NCBI GenBank assembly: GCA_016926555.1
Contig: JAFGOI010000004.1
Location: 776-64,775 of the forward strand
Length of the DNA stretch: 64,000 bases
Direction: 5' to 3'
Source of the DNA: Patescibacteria group bacterium
GTDB lineage: Bacteria > Patescibacteriota > WWE3 > UBA101185 > UBA10185
Part shown: piece after piece, positions 7,335 to 58,319 of the stretch
How positions within the stretch are numbered: position 1 is the stretch's first letter
Layout of the letters: each line of letters starts with the position of its first letter
The notes under the pieces: model-generated
Database searches by the model: none
Told to the model about the DNA's origin: nothing
Seen by the model: the letters and a program-made list of their open reading frames with translations, nothing else
Position numbers and translations under genes: made by a program

Positions 7335-7410
7335 GGCCCCATCGTCTAGTGGCCTAGGACGTCAGGTTCTCATCCTGGAAACCGGGGTTCGATTCCCCGT
7401 GGGGTCACCA
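7335..7410 (+). tRNA. tRNA-Glu (anticodon CUC)
   Basis: A 76-nt cloverleaf. The 7-bp acceptor stem is GGCCCCA/UGGGGUC and the D arm is GUCU/GGAC. The anticodon stem UCAGG/CCUGG carries the loop UUCUCAU. The T arm is GGGGU-UCGAUUC-CCCCG, followed by an encoded CCA. Confidence 0.8.
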
Positions 7411-41368: not shown

Positions 41369-42147
41369 TGAAAATACTCTACGTCGGAGAAATTGTTGCC
41401 GGTTCGGGTAGAAAAGCTGTTAATGCATTCCTACCTGATTTACTAAGAGAATATGATATAGATTTTGTGTTCTCAAACGCAGAAAACCTTTCAGGAGGAA
41501 GAGGTTTTATTCAAGAGAATATTGAAGAAATGACTCTAGCTGGAATAAATTATTATACAAGCGGTGAGCATGTATTTTGGCAGAAAGATACAGAGGATTA
41601 CATTGAAACCACCCCTATTTTAAGACCTGCAAATTATCCCGAGGGCACACCGGGGAAAGGACACACGGTCATAGACCTAGGTAGTAAGGGAAAGATTTTA
41701 CTGATTAACTTGATGGGGAGAACATCTTTTGGTGGACCCAAAATATACTTAGACGATCCGTTTAGAAAAGCCGACGAGATATTAAATATATATAAAGATG
41801 AAGAGTTCCATGCAACAATTGTCGATTTTCATGCAGAAGCTACAAGCGAAAAATATGCAATGTCCTTCTATCTTGATGGACGAGTTACAGCTGTGTTGGG
41901 ATCCCATACACATGTTCCTACATGTGATCAAAGGGTACTTCCGAAAGGAACGCTATATGTTACAGATGTTGGTATGACGGGGAATATTGACTCTGTATTG
42001 GGTGTCGAGAAAGATATAATTATAAACCTTTTTCTGACAGCGAGAAATCAGAGATTCAAATGGGAAAGTACTGGTACTAAAGCATTTAGAAGTGTATTAT
42101 TAGATACGGTAGAACATACCATTTTTAGAATTGATAAGTTAGTTTGA
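41368..42147 (+). CDS. ymdB: YmdB-like metallophosphoesterase (2',3'-cNMP phosphodiesterase family, TIGR00282)
   Basis: MKILYVGEIV...SNAENLSGGRG...GEHV. The rny-ymdB adjacency is conserved. Confidence 0.8.
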   Translation: MKILYVGEIVAGSGRKAVNAFLPDLLREYDIDFVFSNAENLSGGRGFIQENIEEMTLAGINYYTSGEHVFWQKDTEDYIETTPILRPANYPEGTPGKGHTVIDLGSKGKILLINLMGRTSFGGPKIYLDDPFRKADEILNIYKDEEFHATIVDFHAEATSEKYAMSFYLDGRVTAVLGSHTHVPTCDQRVLPKGTLYVTDVGMTGNIDSVLGVEKDIIINLFLTARNQRFKWESTGTKAFRSVLLDTVEHTIFRIDKLV

Positions 42148-52980: not shown

Positions 52981-54681
52981 ATGAAATTTAGTATTGCAAA
53001 AGATAATATGAATGATAAAAAAGTACTAAGAATAATTAATTTAGGTGGAACTGAAACGGTTACTAAAAACCTTACTGTGTATGAATATGATGATGAGATA
53101 ATAGCTGTGGACTGTGGCGTGTATTTTCCGGATAGTGAAATGCACGGGGTTGATGTAGTAATTCCAGATTTTACTTACCTTGAAGAGAATTCCCACAAGT
53201 TTAAGGCGCTGTTTATAACTCACGGGCATGAAGACCATTTTGGCGCGGTGCCTTATTTTTTGGATAGGTTTGATGTGCCTATTTATGCGGATAAACTTGT
53301 TCAGGGATTTTTACGGGAAAGATTTAAGGATAAAGATTCTAAGAAGTACGCGGAAAAGGTACGGTTTGTTGATTTTGAAAGCAGTACGCCAGAGGTCCAC
53401 CTGAAGCATTTTAAGGTCTCCGCTTTTGGAGTAAATCACTCGGTTCCGGATAGCAAGGGTTTAGCCATTAGAACTCCGGAAGGTCTGGTTTTGCATATTG
53501 CGGATTTTAAAGTTGATTGGACTCCTGTTATAGATCCTCCTATTGAAATTGACAAAATAGCCAATTTTGGAAATGAAGGTGTTCTTTGTCTATTGTCGGA
53601 CTGTCTTGGAGTAACTAAAGAAGGTATGTCTGCATCAGAAGTGACTATAGAGCCGACTTTTCTTGATCTATTTGAAAAAGCTAAGGGAAGACAGCTTATG
53701 ATAACTACTATATCCTCAAATCTTTCAAGGATGTATCAGATAATTAAAACCGCAGAGCATTACGGTAGAAAAGTTGTTCTGGGGGGAAGATCCATTCAGC
53801 AGAGTGTTAGTGTGGCTCAGAACTTGGGATATCTTCCCTTTCCTGATGATCTTTTTGTAAGTGAAAAGAGTGCACAAAGCCAAAATCAGGGAAATATAGT
53901 ATATATAATAGCCGGATGTTATGGACAGGTCGGTTCAGCTTTGGAGAGAGTAAGTAGAGATGAAAATGAAAGGATATATTTGGAAGATAACGCGATGATC
54001 GTGTTTTCAGCGGATCCTAACCCTCCGGGGACTGATGTTATGGTGGAAAAAGTCATGGATCGGTTGACACTAAAAGGTGCGGAAGTTGTTTATTCAGATA
54101 TCCAAGATAATTTACACATTTCGGGGCATGGCACAAAGGGTGATTTGACTTTAATTGCCCAATTGGCAAAACCAAAATACTTCATTCCGATTGGCGGAAC
54201 TATAACAAAAATGAGAGCCTATAGAAATATGCTTGTGGAGTTGGGGATTGAAAAAGAGAGAGTGTTTGAAAATCTTGAGGGTGAATCAGTGGAGTTTTCA
54301 AACGGCGAGGCAACTGTTGGATCTACTATTAAAACAGAATTGGTTATGATAGGCTCTGATACTGGAGAAATAAGCCCAATTGTGATGAAAGATAGAGAAC
54401 AATTATCTTCAGAAGGAGTATTTGTTGTAGTTGTTCCAAGAGATAAAAATGGCAATCTGGTACCGGAAAAATCTGAAATTATCACACGCGGGTTCATTTA
54501 TGTTAAAGAATCCCCAGAATTAATGCAGCAATACAGAGATTTCGCCGCTAAATCAATAAATAAATGGCTTGATAAAGATAAAGATTGGAATGAGTTGAAA
54601 AGAAAGGTCGAACTTGATTTTGAGAAGTACTTGTATAAGAAATCAAGAAGAAGGCCTATGGTTTTGGTACATAGTATCTAA
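52981..54681 (+). CDS. rnj: Ribonuclease J (metallo-beta-lactamase/beta-CASP)
   Basis: HGHEDH, the beta-CASP region and a C-terminal domain. 566 aa. Confidence 0.85.
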   Translation: MKFSIAKDNMNDKKVLRIINLGGTETVTKNLTVYEYDDEIIAVDCGVYFPDSEMHGVDVVIPDFTYLEENSHKFKALFITHGHEDHFGAVPYFLDRFDVPIYADKLVQGFLRERFKDKDSKKYAEKVRFVDFESSTPEVHLKHFKVSAFGVNHSVPDSKGLAIRTPEGLVLHIADFKVDWTPVIDPPIEIDKIANFGNEGVLCLLSDCLGVTKEGMSASEVTIEPTFLDLFEKAKGRQLMITTISSNLSRMYQIIKTAEHYGRKVVLGGRSIQQSVSVAQNLGYLPFPDDLFVSEKSAQSQNQGNIVYIIAGCYGQVGSALERVSRDENERIYLEDNAMIVFSADPNPPGTDVMVEKVMDRLTLKGAEVVYSDIQDNLHISGHGTKGDLTLIAQLAKPKYFIPIGGTITKMRAYRNMLVELGIEKERVFENLEGESVEFSNGEATVGSTIKTELVMIGSDTGEISPIVMKDREQLSSEGVFVVVVPRDKNGNLVPEKSEIITRGFIYVKESPELMQQYRDFAAKSINKWLDKDKDWNELKRKVELDFEKYLYKKSRRRPMVLVHSI

Positions 54682-55134
54682 TCTATTTAGCTAGGTTCTG
54701 AACAGGCTACAGACGCTAAAGGCTTGGGTCCAGGTACTAATCGGAATTTACAGCGCGACCTATAGTATTGACTTCTCGGATAATTTATACTATAATTAAC
54801 GTTGCAATGTTAGTATAAGGAACATTCTAGAGTTCAAGTTTGAAATGACACACCCAGTGAAATATTATGGTGGTAATGAAAAACCATGCACATTTAACAA
54901 TATATTATGACAGAGAGATACATAATCAAGGTACCGGGAAATAAGTAATAAAAAACAAACTTTGTTATTTATTTTCCGGCATCTTAGAGATATAGACCTT
55001 ATTTTTCCATGGAGGTGGAAATAATAAGAGCGGGTTAGTTACACCGCGCTTCTCTAGGAGAAACCTTGTTGTGTGTAGTTTAGCCGGAAATACACGATAT
55101 TACATTACGTTACGATCAGAAAAAAAGGAGTACA

Positions 55135-55875
55135 ATGAGAGCGAAAATCGTTGTTGTGTTGGTTTTGTTGTCCCTGGTCACCATTCCCGTCCTTGCGGAT
55201 CCTCCCGCGTCTAGCGGAATCCTGCCGAGGCAGGAGGATGTCCCGGGCTTTTGCGAGCACGGGGCAGTGGTTGGGAGGGAGGGGACCCTCGTGTACCGAG
55301 GACCGGGTACCTATTATGGTACCTGGGGCACTTTGCCCGCAGGGGCGGTGGGGATTGTCGACACCGACGGGGATTGGTACCGCATCTCGTACGACTATGA
55401 GATGTGGGTTCCGGGATACGCTGTCGTATCCCACAGCGGGTGTAACATTCCCCCGGAGTATGGGTTTGGTTACCCCCACCCGGTTTCGCTTCCAGCTCCT
55501 CTGCAAGGAGCAGAATGGAAAAGGATCTGGGAGCTTCTCCCCGAGAACTACTGGCAAGAAGGAATGCCGATAAGTTTTCGGGTGAGCGTTGCCGGGGAGG
55601 ATGGGGAGACCATTATGGAGTATAGCGGAGGATTTTCTCCTAACTCACTGGTGCCCGTCCCCAGCAGTGTTCGCGGTTATGTGGTGCGGATAACCGCCGC
55701 AGTTAACTTTCCTCCCCCAGGGGAGGCTCGGGTTTACTGGACCAACCAGGTCGAATGGGCGGTCTTAGACCCCGAAGCCGGTTGGATCAACCTCCCGCTA
55801 GAAAGCCAAGATAGGCTCTCTTTGGCGGGGGAGGATCAGGATTGGACGGACGGGGTCTACTGGTGGAGGTGGTAA
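55135..55875 (+). CDS. Secreted SH3b-domain protein encoded by a GC-rich, compositionally foreign ORF
   Basis: An SD aaaggag precedes the ATG. A signal peptide MRAKIVVVLVLLSLVTIPVLA and an SH3b-like segment GTLVYRGPGTYYGTWGTLPAGAVGIVDTDGDWYRISY follow. Third codon positions are mostly G/C, unlike every other gene in the window. Confidence 0.55.
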   Translation: MRAKIVVVLVLLSLVTIPVLADPPASSGILPRQEDVPGFCEHGAVVGREGTLVYRGPGTYYGTWGTLPAGAVGIVDTDGDWYRISYDYEMWVPGYAVVSHSGCNIPPEYGFGYPHPVSLPAPLQGAEWKRIWELLPENYWQEGMPISFRVSVAGEDGETIMEYSGGFSPNSLVPVPSSVRGYVVRITAAVNFPPPGEARVYWTNQVEWAVLDPEAGWINLPLESQDRLSLAGEDQDWTDGVYWWRW

Positions 55876-55900
55876 GCCACAAAGCTAGATAGACCCCCAT

Positions 55901-55970
55901 GAGCTACGGTTCCCTGTTCTTAAGTGTAAACACAATTGGTGACTCACACACTGAACAGGAACCGTAGCTC
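55901..55970 (+). terminator. Long inverted repeat (18-bp stem, 34-nt loop) immediately downstream of the GC-rich gene. Possibly a terminator.
   Basis: GAGCTACGGTTCC(C)TGTTC ... GAACAGGAACCGTAGCTC followed by TTTACGTTTTTC. Confidence 0.4.
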
Positions 55971-56036
55971 TTTACGTTTTTCAATACCTTTTTATTCAAA
56001 TGGATATCACATAAATCACGTGTTAATATATTATCG

Positions 56037-58319
56037 ATGGCTAAAAGAGGGCGCAAAAAGAAATTTAAGCTTAAATTAAACATTCGTCCGGAAACAGTAA
56101 GATCAATACTTGCTCTTGTTTTTCTTATGTCAGCGGTATTATCTCTCATTTCATTTTTTGCTCCCAATTACACCATAAATTCTAAAATTCAAGCGGCACT
56201 AAAGGGGGTTTTTGGTATGGGGGCTTATTTGATGCCCATTTTGCTTGGAGTAATCGGTTTGTTCTTTGTGCAAAGAATACAGACGAAGATTAAGGAGTTC
56301 CGTATTGTCTTGGGGTTAGCTTTACTTGTTGTGAGCGTTTCCGGTTTTTTTGGTGTTATTGGCTCTAAAAAAAATCTTGGTGGAGTATTGGGGGGACAAT
56401 TGGCCGGTATTTTATCCAGTATGATTAGCAAATATGGGGCTGGTTTTGTCTTCATTTTTGGCGTAATGATATCTTTTATTATTGTGTTTGATGTGTCCAT
56501 TGATCAGCTTATAGATTTTGTTAGCAGGTTTATGAATGTTACTTGGCTCAGGAAGCTTAGAAAAAAAGATGTCGAGAATTTGGATGGTGCAGGTGATGTA
56601 GATGTAGAGATTACCGCTGGAGCCGTTCTTGATGAGGACGGCGACGGTTCTGAGTTAAAACAAAAGAAGCTCGAATTACAAGAGGAGGAAAATGAGGAGC
56701 CTTCTTTCGAGGTTATTCCTTCCATGTCGGAGCCGCAGTCTCTCAAAATGGTTGAGGACGCCGATGCCTCGACCGCAACTATTTCTCCGAGGTTGCCTTA
56801 TACCGATAGAATCTGGCAGAATCCCCCTTTGAGCTTATTGAATTCTCCTACAGGTGCTCAAGCCGATGTTGGCGACGTGCAGGAAAGGGCGCGAATAATC
56901 CAGGAAACTCTAAAATCATTTGATATACATGCTCAAGTTGTCGATGTGAAAGCGGGACCCACAGTTACCCAGTATCAGTTAAAACCGAAATCCGGGACCA
57001 AGGTATCAAAAATAGCCAATTTACATAACGATTTGGCGATGGCGCTCGCATCAAAAACCGGTACAGTCAGAATCGAGGCTCCAATACCTGGAAAATCTCT
57101 AATCGGTATTGAAGTACCTAATAACACAAGAGAAATAGTCTACTTTAAGTCCCTGTTTTTATCGGATCCCATGAAATCACAGAAGTCAAAGCTTGCGGTG
57201 ACGCTGGGGATCGATGTAGGCGGACAGGTGCATGTATACGATATAGCAAAAATGCCCCATCTGCTTATCGCGGGATCAACCGGTTCAGGTAAATCAATAT
57301 TTATCCATAACATACTTTTTTCTATTTTGTTTAGAGCAAGCCCGCAGGAAGTTAAATTTATTATAGTGGATCCAAAAAGGGTCGAAATGTCCCACTATCA
57401 GAACATACCTCATCTGCTAACGCCTGTGGTAACAGATATGGACAAGGCGCCTTCTGTTTTTAGATGGGCTGTTGCGGAGATGGAGAAGAGGTATAAACTT
57501 TTGGAGCAGGCCAAAGCGAGAAATATCGATGCGTACAATGAAAAATCAGGTTTTCAGGCTATGCCTTATATTGTGGTTGTTGTAGACGAGTTGGGTGAAA
57601 TTATGGCGAGGGATCCGGCTAATGTTGAAAAGAGTATTATTCGTTTGGCACAGTTGGCGCGAGCTACGGGTATACATTTGGTAATGGCTGTCCAAAGACC
57701 TTCCGCTGATATAATAACAGGTTTGATTAAGGCAAATATTCCGGCGAGGGTGGCATTTAGTGTGTCGAGCCAGGTTAACTCCCGCGTAATAATTGATCAA
57801 CCCGGGGCAGAAAAACTTCTTGCGAAGGGAGATATGCTTTTTGTTCCTCCCGATGCGCCAAAACCGGTAAGACTTCAGGCTCCTTGGATTGACGATAAAG
57901 AAATTGAAGCTCTGGTTGATTATTTGAAGAGTCAAGGAGTTGAAGCGGACTTCAAGGACGAAATTTTGGAAATGCCTTCAGATAAACAAACCAATGGCAG
58001 ATCTACGGGTTCGTCGGCATGGGGAGGTGATGTAGATGAACTTTTTGATGATGCAGTAGAGTTGGTAATCTCAGCGGGAAAAGCTTCCGCGTCCCTTCTT
58101 CAAAGAAAACTTTCAATCGGATATGCGAGAGCCGCGAGAATAATAGATGAAATGGAGGAAAGAGGGGTTATAAGCGAGTCTTTGGGAGGGAGTCGCGCAA
58201 GGGATATACTTGTTTCAGGCGCATCTCCAGGCAGGTCTATGGATTTTGATGATGATTATGAGGATGATACTGATATTATCGCTCCTGACGATCCTGTGCG
58301 TACGCTTACAGGTAATTAG
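56037..58319 (+). CDS. ftsK: DNA translocase FtsK/SpoIIIE
   Basis: An N-terminal 4-TM domain, a linker, the motor domain (Walker A GSTGSGKS, VVVDELGEIM) and a C-terminal gamma wHTH. Confidence 0.9.
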   Translation: MAKRGRKKKFKLKLNIRPETVRSILALVFLMSAVLSLISFFAPNYTINSKIQAALKGVFGMGAYLMPILLGVIGLFFVQRIQTKIKEFRIVLGLALLVVSVSGFFGVIGSKKNLGGVLGGQLAGILSSMISKYGAGFVFIFGVMISFIIVFDVSIDQLIDFVSRFMNVTWLRKLRKKDVENLDGAGDVDVEITAGAVLDEDGDGSELKQKKLELQEEENEEPSFEVIPSMSEPQSLKMVEDADASTATISPRLPYTDRIWQNPPLSLLNSPTGAQADVGDVQERARIIQETLKSFDIHAQVVDVKAGPTVTQYQLKPKSGTKVSKIANLHNDLAMALASKTGTVRIEAPIPGKSLIGIEVPNNTREIVYFKSLFLSDPMKSQKSKLAVTLGIDVGGQVHVYDIAKMPHLLIAGSTGSGKSIFIHNILFSILFRASPQEVKFIIVDPKRVEMSHYQNIPHLLTPVVTDMDKAPSVFRWAVAEMEKRYKLLEQAKARNIDAYNEKSGFQAMPYIVVVVDELGEIMARDPANVEKSIIRLAQLARATGIHLVMAVQRPSADIITGLIKANIPARVAFSVSSQVNSRVIIDQPGAEKLLAKGDMLFVPPDAPKPVRLQAPWIDDKEIEALVDYLKSQGVEADFKDEILEMPSDKQTNGRSTGSSAWGGDVDELFDDAVELVISAGKASASLLQRKLSIGYARAARIIDEMEERGVISESLGGSRARDILVSGASPGRSMDFDDDYEDDTDIIAPDDPVRTLTGN

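What the first reader, a model, noticed from the sequence alone, without database searches (positions are those of the whole stretch)
55135..55975. Compositionally foreign GC-rich gene encoding a secreted SH3b-domain protein, embedded in an AT-rich core-gene block
Every other gene in the window uses A/T-ending codons. This 741-bp ORF has G/C at most third positions (ctg ccg agg cag gag gat gtc ccg ggc ...). That is why three long overlapping ORFs appear here in the six-frame track (55105..55557 -, 55135..55875 +, 55151..55573 +). Only the + frame at 55135 looks like a real protein. It has the SD aaaggag, a signal peptide MRAKIVVVLVLLSLVTIPVLA, an SH3b-like fold signature and a W/Y/G/P-rich tail ending WWRW. 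The GC shift starts and stops exactly at the CDS boundaries. The 450-bp leader is AT-rich and native-looking, and the gene is followed by an 18-bp-stem inverted repeat. This pattern fits recent horizontal acquisition from a high-GC donor, for example a cell-wall-binding or lytic accessory protein, wired to a local promoter. An assembly chimera is the alternative. It sits between rnj and ftsK, which are core genes.
Basis: partly seen in the sequence, partly recalled or inferred. Interest (0 to 1): 0.7.

Follow-up and report, generated by a model that had tools for sequence, protein, structure and literature searches.

The report
Inserted GC-rich secreted SH3b gene cassette
A real 1.35-kb unit carrying its own promoter, folded leader, GC-rich gene for a secreted SH3b-domain protein and terminator has been inserted between two normally adjacent core genes of an AT-rich Patescibacteria genome, and its only known relative shows the same AT-rich-leader/GC-rich-gene mosaic, so this is not a simple jump from a high-GC donor onto a local promoter.

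Summary
ORF 55135-55875 has 58% GC and GC3 0.65. Every other ORF in the window has GC3 0.25-0.41.

It is not an assembly artefact. An independent assembly is identical across both junctions.

In five relatives, rnj and ftsK lie 14-173 nt apart. Here they are 1355 nt apart, so the whole spacer is a lineage-specific insertion.

The gene is really coding. Identity to its homologue by codon position is 0.51/0.61/0.31. It encodes a signal peptide, an SH3b-like domain and an unclassified Trp-rich C-terminal domain.

Only one homologue was found among about 15 billion proteins, at 36-40% identity. It is also a GC-rich gene (56% GC, GC3 0.68) in a roughly 40%-GC contig. It sits behind a homologous AT-rich promoter and leader: a 14/14 block, a 19/20 block, and a 22-bp hairpin with 6 compensatory pairs.

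The promoter and leader therefore travelled with the gene. The mosaic composition is older than this insertion.

Why the coding part stays GC-rich is unresolved. It could reflect an unsampled donor pool of about 56-60% GC, or selection at the mRNA level.

The window copy also has three times the expected number of short perfect hairpins. This is unexplained.

Interest is moderate and rests on two sequences.

The parts
54682..56036 (.). The whole rnj-ftsK spacer (1355 nt), a lineage-specific insertion
   Evidence: The spacer is 20, 49, 37 and about 14-88 nt in L002, L003, L009 and L010, and 173 nt in the closest relative.
54759..54772 (+). Conserved 14-mer CCTATAGTATTGAC, covering the -35 hexamer and its upstream flank
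   Evidence: It is 14/14 identical to L004 2063-2076. It occurs once in the window at 2 mismatches or fewer. It is longer than any exact match in 200 shuffles.
54768..54796 (+). Sigma-70-like promoter TTGACT-17-TATAAT (11 of 12 consensus positions)
   Evidence: The L004 counterpart is TTGACA-17-TATTAT with an extended TG, also 11/12.
54908..54923 (+). Weaker conserved leader block TGACAGnnGAGATAyA
   Evidence: Read from the sequences. An 11-mer TAGAGATATAG and a 10-mer TATTATGACA are shared.
54928..54985 (+). Conserved 22-bp leader hairpin
   Evidence: RNAalifold on the two loci gives 22 pairs. Six have changes on both sides and none is broken. The hairpin is part of the MFE and centroid folds of both leaders.
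54974..54993 (+). Conserved 20-mer TTCCGGCATCTTRGAGATAT, made of the 3' arm of the hairpin plus a tail
   Evidence: It matches L004 2401-2420 at 19/20. It is unique in the window at 3 mismatches or fewer. It beats 200/200 shuffles.
55125..55130 (+). Shine-Dalgarno AAGGAG
   Evidence: AAGGAGTA is conserved in front of both start codons.
55135..55875 (+). CDS of 246 aa (NCBI MBN1162230.1), 58% GC
   Evidence: Codon-position identity to the L004 homologue is 0.51/0.61/0.31, and 50 of 77 identical residues use different codons.
55135..55197 (+). Signal peptide (aa 1-21, MRAKIVVVLVLLSLVTIPVLA, then DP)
   Evidence: Read from the sequence. The homologue has NRKKR...AAPASA|Q. No predictor was run.
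55267..55431 (+). SH3b-like domain (aa about 45-99), bracketed by the conserved Cys40 and Cys103
   Evidence: phmmer gives E down to 5e-9 against SH3_3 repeat proteins. hhalign gives 96% probability, E 2.9e-9. PDB 2krs and 2kq8 match at E 0.008 and 0.019. Pfam SH3_3 gives only 14.8-16.3 bits against a cut-off of 27.
55444..55872 (+). Trp-rich C-terminal domain of unknown family (aa 104-246), ending DGvYWWRW
   Evidence: No Pfam, NCBIfam or PHROG hit. The AF2 model is beta-rich but has pLDDT 50. Foldseek finds no match at E<=0.001.
55901..55982 (+). Long terminator-like hairpin plus T-rich tail
   Evidence: -38.8 kcal/mol, z -6.5.
56006..56034 (+). Promoter-like site for ftsK (ATCACA-17-TATTAT, 9/12)
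   Evidence: This is a consensus match only.

Best explanation
The feature is a self-contained, horizontally gained transcription unit in the rnj-ftsK spacer of a WWE3-like Patescibacteria genome. It has four parts: a near-consensus sigma-70 promoter, a structured AT-rich leader of about 335 nt, an SD plus a 246-aa CDS, and a long-stem intrinsic terminator.

The product is exported by the Sec pathway and cleaved by SPase I. It carries one SH3b-type domain, probably stapled by a Cys40-Cys103 disulfide, and a Trp-rich beta-type C-terminal domain. No catalytic domain was found. It most likely acts as a surface or cell-wall (glycan or peptidoglycan) binding protein, for example in envelope anchoring or attachment to a partner cell.

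The unit arrived as a whole, promoter and leader included. It was not a naked GC-rich ORF captured by a resident promoter. The GC-rich composition of the coding part is an inherited property of this tiny cassette family. That composition predates the divergence of its two known members.

Shown: the insertion, its coding status, the SH3b similarity, the homology of the leaders, and the shared mosaic composition.

Inferred: secretion, the binding function, the roles of the promoter and terminator, and the mode of transfer.
For: 1. Compositional outlier: GC3 0.65 against 0.25-0.41; the island spans 55172-55914.
2. Not a chimera: the Logan contig from SRR13394437 is 100% identical over 12.7 kb spanning both junctions. 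An independent JGI contig shows the same AT-to-GC transition.
3. Insertion: UDG-rnj-ftsK is collinear in five relatives with spacers of 14-173 nt.
4. Coding: codon-position identity of 0.51/0.61/0.31, and a signal peptide, both cysteines and the Trp-rich C-terminal tail all conserved.
5. SH3b.
6. The unit includes the leader: a 14/14 block and a 19/20 block, collinear and beating all 200 shuffles; a hairpin with 6 compensatory pairs; 11/12 promoters in both loci.
7. The mosaic is shared: the L004 gene has 56% GC and GC3 0.68, its neighbours have 37-41% GC and GC3 0.34-0.36. RSCU correlation between the two genes is 0.44, between each gene and its host -0.29 to +0.07, and between the two hosts 0.73.
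8. No Rfam family, RT, template repeat or phage family explains the feature.
Against: - The family has only two members, so all comparative statements rest on one pairwise comparison.
- No mobility gene, flanking direct repeat or att-like site marks how the unit inserted.
- The taxon of the L004 contig was not established. Its codon usage and GC merely resemble the window's.
- The SH3b match fails Pfam's gathering score. The AF2 models are poor (pLDDT 42 and 50), so the fold and function of two thirds of the protein are unknown.
- Secretion and binding were not tested.
Confidence: 0.6

Rival explanations
1. Simple recent HGT. The ORF, with or without its leader, was taken very recently and directly from an organism of about 56-60% GC. 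Its composition is an unameliorated fossil of that donor. The L004 copy is a second, independent, equally recent transfer from a related donor.
For: - GC1/GC2/GC3 of both genes (0.61/0.49/0.65 and 0.55/0.46/0.68) lie close to the values expected from the Muto-Osawa relations (recalled from established knowledge) for a genome of 56-58% GC. There is no sign of GC3 decaying faster than GC1 and GC2.
- Amino-acid usage is GC-type: Lys 0.8-2.5% against 8% in native proteins, and high Gly/Pro/Trp.
- The insert is absent from five relatives.
Against: - No donor-side homologue was found among 1.84 billion representatives of about 15 billion proteins, in word-index searches, or in JGI metagenome, viral, phage or plasmid DNA.
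- Both known copies sit in AT-rich contigs.
- The conserved distal leader is AT-rich in both copies (30-37% GC), although synonymous sites between the genes are saturated. The AT-leader/GC-CDS mosaic must therefore already have existed in any donor.
- Arg AGR is used at 44-50% and Ile ATA at about 20%, which is atypical for classical high-GC bacteria (small counts).
Confidence: 0.3
2. Selection-maintained GC richness. The cassette belongs to the mobile gene pool of AT-rich Patescibacteria. Its coding region is kept GC-rich, and in this copy hairpin-rich, by selection on the mRNA. One possibility is a long-lived, RNase-resistant message. Another is slowed translation of a secreted protein. Under this reading the composition is functional, not a fossil.
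For: - The two copies have diverged to synonymous saturation, yet both keep GC3 0.65-0.68 behind AT-rich homologous leaders in AT-rich contigs.
- The window mRNA folds at -354 kcal/mol, against -302.6 +/- 7.0 for shuffles that keep the protein and the codon usage (z -7.4). Summed local 90-nt windows give z -4.7.
- It has 30 short perfect hairpins against 10.2 +/- 3.5 expected (z +5.7). Fourteen native genes give z -1.3 to +2.0.
- The stems use otherwise rare codons, such as the gene's only GTA.
- The first 90 nt of the CDS are not over-structured (z +1.4), as expected for a translated message.
Against: - The L004 copy shows no significant excess structure (z -1.9 and -1.6; hairpins 11 against 8.8), so the hairpin excess is not a family trait.
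- Amino-acid composition is also shifted to GC-type. This fits long residence under GC mutation pressure more simply.
- I know of no precedent for single-gene GC3 maintenance of this size. No expression data are available.
Confidence: 0.25
3. Assembly chimera or contamination. A fragment of a GC-rich genome was mis-joined into a Patescibacteria contig.
For: There are sharp compositional steps near 55172 and 55914, and the gene has no close homologues.
Against: - A second assembler's contig is identical across both junctions.
- An internal 0.74-kb insert would need two mis-joins.
- An AT-rich promoter, SD, signal-peptide start and terminator frame the ORF precisely.
- An independent sample and assembly (JGI 3300041075) shows the same leader-to-GC-gene arrangement.
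Confidence: 0.02
4. Not a protein gene. The GC-rich stretch is a structured non-coding RNA, or a DGR or other diversification target, in which long ORFs are open only because stop codons are rare in GC-rich sequence.
For: Three overlapping long ORFs are present. The predicted structure is strong.
Against: - No Rfam family matches at gathering score, and no convincing match appears at E<=10.
- Third codon positions diverge most (0.31 against 0.51 and 0.61), and 50 of 77 conserved residues use different codons.
- There is significant similarity to real SH3b domains.
- The window holds no reverse transcriptase motif and no template-like repeat.
Confidence: 0.03

Closest known systems
Bacterial SH3b cell-wall-binding domains (Pfam SH3_3 PF08239; solved examples 2krs and 2kq8)
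   Same: It has the core motif (v-R-x-GPG-x-x-Y-x-x-x-G-x-L-x-x-G-x-x-V ... g-x-W-y-x-I-x-y), an N-terminal signal peptide and an extracytoplasmic location. hhalign gives 96% probability. Fifty reciprocal phmmer hits are genuine SH3_3 proteins.
   Different: It has a single, divergent copy that scores below Pfam's gathering threshold. Lys is replaced by Arg/Ala/Pro/Gly, and the domain is bracketed by two conserved cysteines. It is not fused to an amidase, NlpC/P60 or glucosaminidase domain as many SH3_3 proteins are. Instead it is fused to an unclassified Trp-rich domain.
Compositionally atypical genomic islets acquired by horizontal transfer
   Same: It is anomalous in GC and codon usage, absent from the orthologous site of relatives, and inserted in an intergenic spacer between core genes.
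   Different: It is only 1.35 kb long. It has no integrase, tRNA or direct repeats. The anomaly covers the CDS but not its co-transferred promoter and leader. The only homologue shows the same internal mosaic in another AT-rich contig, and no donor lineage can be named.
Surface-protein transcription units with a strong promoter, a long structured 5' UTR and a strong terminator, such as S-layer genes whose leader hairpins stabilise the mRNA. This comparison rests on my own knowledge and was not tested here.
   Same: It has a near-consensus promoter, a leader of about 335 nt with a conserved long hairpin, a strong SD, a secreted product and a long-stem terminator.
   Different: No homology to S-layer proteins was found, there are no expression data, and codon usage is opposite to that of the host's other genes.

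Membership tests
SH3b / Pfam SH3_3 (PF08239) | Score at or above Pfam's gathering threshold (27 bits) | tested here: not met
   14.8 bits (E 0.032) for the whole protein and 16.3 bits for the isolated N-terminal part. The homologue P0002 has no hit.
SH3b / Pfam SH3_3 (PF08239) | Significant sequence or profile similarity to established SH3_3 domains | tested here: met
   phmmer against 1.84 billion representatives gives 50 hits over aa 45-99 (E 5e-9 to 9e-4). The eight of them scanned all carry SH3_3 at E<=5e-26. hhalign against 13 such domains gives 96% probability, E 2.9e-9. PDB 2krs and 2kq8 match at E 0.008 and 0.019.
SH3b / Pfam SH3_3 (PF08239) | SH3-type beta-barrel fold | tested here: inconclusive
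   The AF2 model has pLDDT 24-34 over the domain.
SH3b / Pfam SH3_3 (PF08239) | Binds peptidoglycan or another cell-wall polymer | not testable with these tools
   This needs purified protein and a binding assay.
Sec/SPase I secreted protein | N-terminal basic n-region, a hydrophobic h-region of 12-17 residues, small residues at -1 and -3, and no lipobox Cys | tested here: met
   MRAK / IVVVLVLLSLVTIP / VLA|DP in the window. NRKKRNN / LVNIVAALAFLAIFAFAAP / ASA|Q in P0002. This was judged by inspection only; no predictor was run.
Horizontally acquired islet | Composition and codon usage deviate from the host genome | tested here: met
Horizontally acquired islet | Absent from the orthologous site in related genomes | tested here: met
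   Five relatives, with RNase J 53-74% identical, have spacers of 14-173 nt.
Horizontally acquired islet | Identifiable donor lineage, meaning homologues in genomes whose bulk composition matches the gene | tested here: not met
   The only homologue is again a GC-rich gene in an AT-rich contig.
Horizontally acquired islet | Mobility signatures (integrase or transposase, flanking direct repeats, tRNA target) | tested here: not met
   No convincing flanking repeats, no related sequence elsewhere in the window, and no phage family hit.
Peptidoglycan hydrolase / endolysin accessory | Catalytic domain (amidase, NlpC/P60, glucosaminidase, lysozyme), either in the protein or encoded adjacent to it | tested here: not met
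   No catalytic domain in Pfam, NCBIfam or PHROGs. The neighbours are rnj and ftsK.
Diversity-generating retroelement target | A nearby reverse transcriptase and a template repeat matching the 3' end of the gene | tested here: not met
   The gene has no repeat elsewhere in the 64 kb. The single YxDD match, at 41746, lies far from this gene; it was not examined further.
Known cis-regulatory or other RNA family (Rfam 15) | Match at the family's gathering score | tested here: not met
   Only a tRNA in the window reaches threshold. In 54600-56100 nothing comes near a gathering score.

The most novel reading that the evidence does not exclude
The unit may be a Patescibacteria-restricted mobile expression cassette whose coding sequence is actively kept GC-rich by selection on the RNA. 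In the window copy it is also packed with short perfect hairpins. The selected trait could be a nuclease-resistant, long-lived or slowly translated message, governed by a previously undescribed conserved leader hairpin. The product would be a Trp-rich SH3b surface adhesin. Under this reading the 'foreign' composition is a functional trait and not a trace of a GC-rich donor.
Probability: 0.22. Interest if true: 0.65.

Novelty: new variant of a known kind. Interest (0 to 1): 0.42.

Why it matters
The standard reading of anomalous GC is recent transfer from a donor of that GC content. Here that reading fails its most direct test. The only relative has the same GC-rich CDS behind the same AT-rich leader in another AT-rich contig, even though synonymous sites between the two are saturated.

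If more members confirm this pattern, it would be a case of single-gene base composition maintained against the genome's mutational bias. It would also define a new leader RNA element in Patescibacteria.

More practically, this is a lineage-specific secreted SH3b protein in a group whose members are mostly obligate episymbionts. That makes it a candidate for a role in envelope biology or partner attachment.

If more members turn up in ordinary genomes of 55-60% GC, the feature is an ordinary orphan HGT gene.

Tried and rejected
Searches for further family members:
- Word-index search with the protein and with the 2-sequence profile.
- Full HMMER scan of 1.84 billion representatives.
- Back-translated pattern scans of JGI metagenome and IMG/VR contigs.
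- tblastn against phage and plasmid collections.
- All of these returned only the query and P0002.

Searches for the leader elsewhere:
- The 20-mer in JGI metagenomes gave 4 hits, none with a preceding hairpin or a similar context. These are chance matches.
- The 20-mer in viral contigs gave 0 hits.
- A pattern built on the hairpin arms gave 9 hits in viral contigs, and none folds as the hairpin.

Structure:
- AF2 on the full protein (pLDDT 42) and on the C-terminal domain (pLDDT 50) was too poor to use.
- Foldseek against PDB found nothing at E<=0.001, only generic beta-sandwich hits with TM about 0.3.

Other ideas rejected:
- DGR: no RT and no template repeat.
- Known RNA family: none.
- Conserved leader peptide: no shared small ORF. 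The minus-strand ORF called by JGI in the L004 leader is cut to 5 codons in the window (and reading).
- rnj terminator in 54676-54770: no structure (z +0.8).
- Target-site duplication: only a 9-nt CTGAACAGG is shared between 54700 and the right arm of the terminator hairpin. I judged this chance.
- Taxonomy of L004: its neighbour proteins have no Pfam or PHROG family beyond an XRE HTH and a zinc-ribbon.
- Literature: no paper mentions the run accession or this kind of gene.
Full report
OBSERVATION

The window averages 38.4% GC. The ORF at 55135-55875 (+) has 58.3% GC, with GC1/GC2/GC3 of 0.61/0.49/0.65. Every other ORF of 120 aa or more that corresponds to a real gene has GC3 of 0.25-0.41. In 300-nt windows the island reaches 0.62, while the rest of the window is 0.381 +/- 0.039 and never exceeds 0.50. 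Maximum-likelihood segmentation places the island at 55172-55914, about 38 nt downstream of both CDS ends. The shift is therefore close to the CDS boundaries but not exactly at them.

The three overlapping ORFs, the SD (AAGGAG, 55125-55130), the hydrophobic N-terminus and the downstream inverted repeat are all present. The repeat folds into a stem of about 18 bp with a bulge and an inner helix. Its energy is -38.8 kcal/mol (z -6.5), and a T-rich tail follows.

IS IT REAL DNA?

The protein is NCBI MBN1162230.1, 'SH3 domain-containing protein [Patescibacteria group bacterium]', on a 288-kb contig. An independent Logan assembly of run SRR13394437 gives a 15-kb contig. That contig is identical to the window over 12,717 nt, including both junctions. 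An internal insert would need two mis-joins. A separate JGI sample also shows the same arrangement (see below). I reject the chimera reading, subject to read-level confirmation.

IS IT A GENE?

The only full-length homologue, P0002 (237 aa, 36-40% identity by alignment method, E 7.5e-16), aligns along the whole mature protein. Nucleotide identity by codon position is 0.51/0.61/0.31. Of 77 identical non-Met/Trp residues, 50 use different codons. This is the signature of purifying selection on this reading frame with saturated synonymous sites. The other two ORFs are open only because stop codons are rare in GC-rich sequence.

No Rfam family matches. The window holds no reverse transcriptase and no template-like repeat.

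WHAT THE PROTEIN IS

Both proteins begin with a basic n-region, a hydrophobic h-region and an A-x-A-type cleavage site (VLA|DP and ASA|Q). This was read by eye.

Residues 45-99 are SH3b-like:
- Pfam SH3_3 scores only 14.8-16.3 bits against a cut-off of 27.
- An exhaustive phmmer scan returns 50 proteins matching just this stretch (E 5e-9 to 9e-4). The eight of them scanned against Pfam are all multi-repeat SH3_3 proteins, three of them also carrying amidase, NlpC/P60 or glucosaminidase domains.
- A profile-profile comparison with 13 such domains gives 96% probability, E 2.9e-9.
- The solved SH3b domains 2krs and 2kq8 match at E 0.008 and 0.019.

The domain is bracketed by two invariant cysteines (FCEH and GCNIPP). 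I infer a disulfide between them.

Residues 104-246 have no family in Pfam, NCBIfam or PHROGs. They are Trp-rich: 5.3% and 8.0% Trp in the two whole proteins, against 0.9% in native proteins. Both proteins end in a conserved W-x-DG-x-YW...W-x-W tail. AF2 models are beta-rich but of low confidence (pLDDT 42 and 50). Foldseek finds nothing significant. No catalytic domain is present.

My functional call is a secreted, non-enzymatic protein that binds the cell wall or a glycan. This is inferred, not shown.

THE INSERTION

The neighbours are UDG, RNase J and FtsK.

| Relative | RNase J / FtsK identity to window | rnj-ftsK spacer |
|---|---|---|
| L002 (WWE3 MAG) | 56% / 53% | 20 nt |
| L003 | 53% / 53% | 49 nt |
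| L009 | RNase J 60-62% | 37 nt |
| L010 | RNase J 60-62% | 88 nt as called, about 14 nt by my reading of the FtsK N-terminus |
| JGI 3300072015 (closest) | RNase J 74% | 173 nt, no gene called |

The closest relative is collinear from S15 to ClpB. In the window the spacer is 1355 nt (54682-56036). The whole spacer, not only the ORF, is therefore specific to this lineage. The insertion splits a probable rnj-ftsK operon. A weak promoter-like site at 56006-56034 precedes ftsK.

THE KEY RESULT: THE HOMOLOGUE HAS THE SAME MOSAIC

P0002 lies on a 3.3-kb JGI contig (3300041075, locus L004). Its gene has 56.2% GC and GC3 0.68. The four neighbouring genes have 37-41% GC and GC3 0.34-0.36.

The two 'host' backgrounds have similar codon usage (RSCU r = 0.73). 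The two GC-rich genes resemble each other (r = 0.44) and not their hosts (r = -0.29 to +0.07).

The regions upstream of the two genes are homologous:
- A 14/14 block, CCTATAGTATTGAC, covers the -35 hexamer of an 11/12 sigma-70-type promoter in both loci.
- A 19/20 block, TTCCGGCATCTTRGAGATAT, is shared.
- There is a weaker TGACAGnnGAGATAyA block.
- The SD context AAGGAGTA is conserved.
- All of these lie in the same order.

Both strong blocks exceed anything found in 200 dinucleotide shuffles. The first half of the 20-mer is the 3' strand of a 22-bp hairpin. The upper part of that hairpin differs completely in sequence between the loci but stays paired: 6 pairs changed on both sides and none broken.

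The distal leader is AT-rich in both loci, at 30% and 37% GC. The proximal 130-140 nt are 40% GC in the window and 55% in L004.

The promoter and leader are thus conserved parts of the unit. They are not 'local' or 'native'. Because synonymous sites in the CDS are saturated, the leader blocks must be under selection, and the AT-leader/GC-CDS mosaic predates the split of the two copies.

WHY IS THE CDS GC-RICH?

There are two readings.

(a) Donor fossil.
- GC1/2/3 of both genes fit what I recall of the Muto-Osawa relations for a genome of 56-58% GC, with no amelioration signature.
- Amino-acid usage is GC-type (Lys 0.8-2.5%).
- Against it: there is no donor-side homologue anywhere.
- Against it: both copies are in AT-rich contigs.
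- Against it: the AT-rich leader must then have co-existed with the gene in the donor.
- Against it: Arg AGR at 44-50% and Ile ATA at about 20% are unlike classical high-GC bacteria (small counts).

(b) Maintained by selection at the RNA level.
- The window mRNA folds at -354 kcal/mol, against -302.6 +/- 7.0 for shuffles that preserve protein and codon usage (z -7.4). Local windows give z -4.7.
- It contains 30 short perfect hairpins, against 10.2 +/- 3.5 expected (z +5.7). Fourteen native genes give z -1.3 to +2.0.
- The stems recruit otherwise rare codons.
- Against it: the L004 copy shows no such excess, so this is not a family trait.

I cannot decide between these readings with two sequences. 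I give (a) about 0.30 and (b) about 0.25 as accounts of the composition. I hold the cassette-insertion statement itself at about 0.6 overall. Its components 'real gene' and 'lineage-specific insertion' are well above 0.9.

COMPARISON WITH KNOWN THINGS

The N-terminal domain works like an SH3b domain and is very probably homologous to one. It fails Pfam's formal threshold, so I call it SH3b-like.

The locus meets the compositional and phyletic criteria of a horizontally acquired islet. It lacks mobility signatures and an identifiable donor.

The layout (strong promoter, long structured leader, strong terminator, secreted product) resembles that of abundant surface-protein genes. This comparison rests on my own knowledge and was not tested.

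VERDICT

The feature is real and is a lineage-specific gain.

The feature is a new variant of a known kind: an orphan secreted SH3b-like protein gene in a self-contained cassette. It has two unexplained aspects:
- a compositional mosaic shared with its only homologue;
- an excess of hairpins in the coding sequence.

Interest is moderate (0.42), limited by n = 2 and by the absence of functional data.

Noticed in passing
window 55135-55875: The CDS holds 30 short perfect hairpins (stem of 5 or more, loop 3-12), or 40.5 per kb. Synonymous-codon shuffles give 10.2 +/- 3.5 (z +5.7), and 14 native genes give z -1.3 to +2.0. Examples are GGGATACG-ctgt-CGTATCCC at 55413-55432 and GCGGTTAT-...-ATAACCGC at 55673-55697. 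Both use codons that are rare in this gene (GTA, ATA). The L004 homologue lacks the excess. This is unexplained; selection on the mRNA or template-switch mutation are possibilities.
   Followed up: partly
window 54928-54993; L004 2357-2420: A leader hairpin of 22 bp is conserved, with 6 compensatory pairs between the two loci. An invariant tail CATCTTRGAGATAT follows it. No Rfam family matches. A downstream GCCGGAAA (near 55085) is complementary to the 3' arm TTTCCGGC, so an alternative pairing is conceivable. With two sequences this cannot be tested.
   Followed up: partly
L004 about 2038-2069: A tandem 16-nt direct repeat, TGCAAAGAAACCCTAT x2, overlaps the conserved promoter block. It lies directly downstream of an XRE-family HTH gene (1813-2028) and could be an operator. 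The window copy has neither the repeat nor a regulator gene next to it.
   Followed up: no
L004 2128-2145 and 2183-2212: The L004 leader has a terminator-like hairpin about 30 nt after the first promoter, and then a second 11/12 promoter-like site (TTGACA-18-TAAAAT). That second site coincides with the conserved TGACAGnnGAGATAyA block. The window has a second promoter-like site at 54840-54868.
   Followed up: no
window 55261-55284: A G-quadruplex-like motif, GGGGcagtggttGGGaGGGaGGGG, lies on the coding strand within the SH3b-coding region.
   Followed up: no
window 54759-54772, minus strand: The reverse complement of the conserved 14-mer reads GTCAATACTATAGG. Its ACTATAGG resembles the initiation core of T7-type single-subunit RNA polymerase promoters, but the upstream specificity region does not match. 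This is probably chance.
   Followed up: no
window 54682-56036 compared with L002, L003, L009, L010: In relatives, rnj and ftsK are only 14-49 nt apart and are probably co-transcribed. The insert, with its strong terminator, uncouples them. ftsK here is preceded by a 61-nt stretch of 25% GC containing a weak promoter-like site (56006-56034).
   Followed up: partly
window 56600-56900: There is a local GC rise to about 0.50 inside ftsK, in the acidic linker region (EEENEEPSFE...). It is the second-highest GC in the window and is explained by amino-acid composition, not by foreign origin.
   Followed up: no
window 7335-7410: The only tRNA in the 64 kb is tRNA-Glu(CTC), which reads GAG. This has no evident link to the finding.
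   Followed up: no
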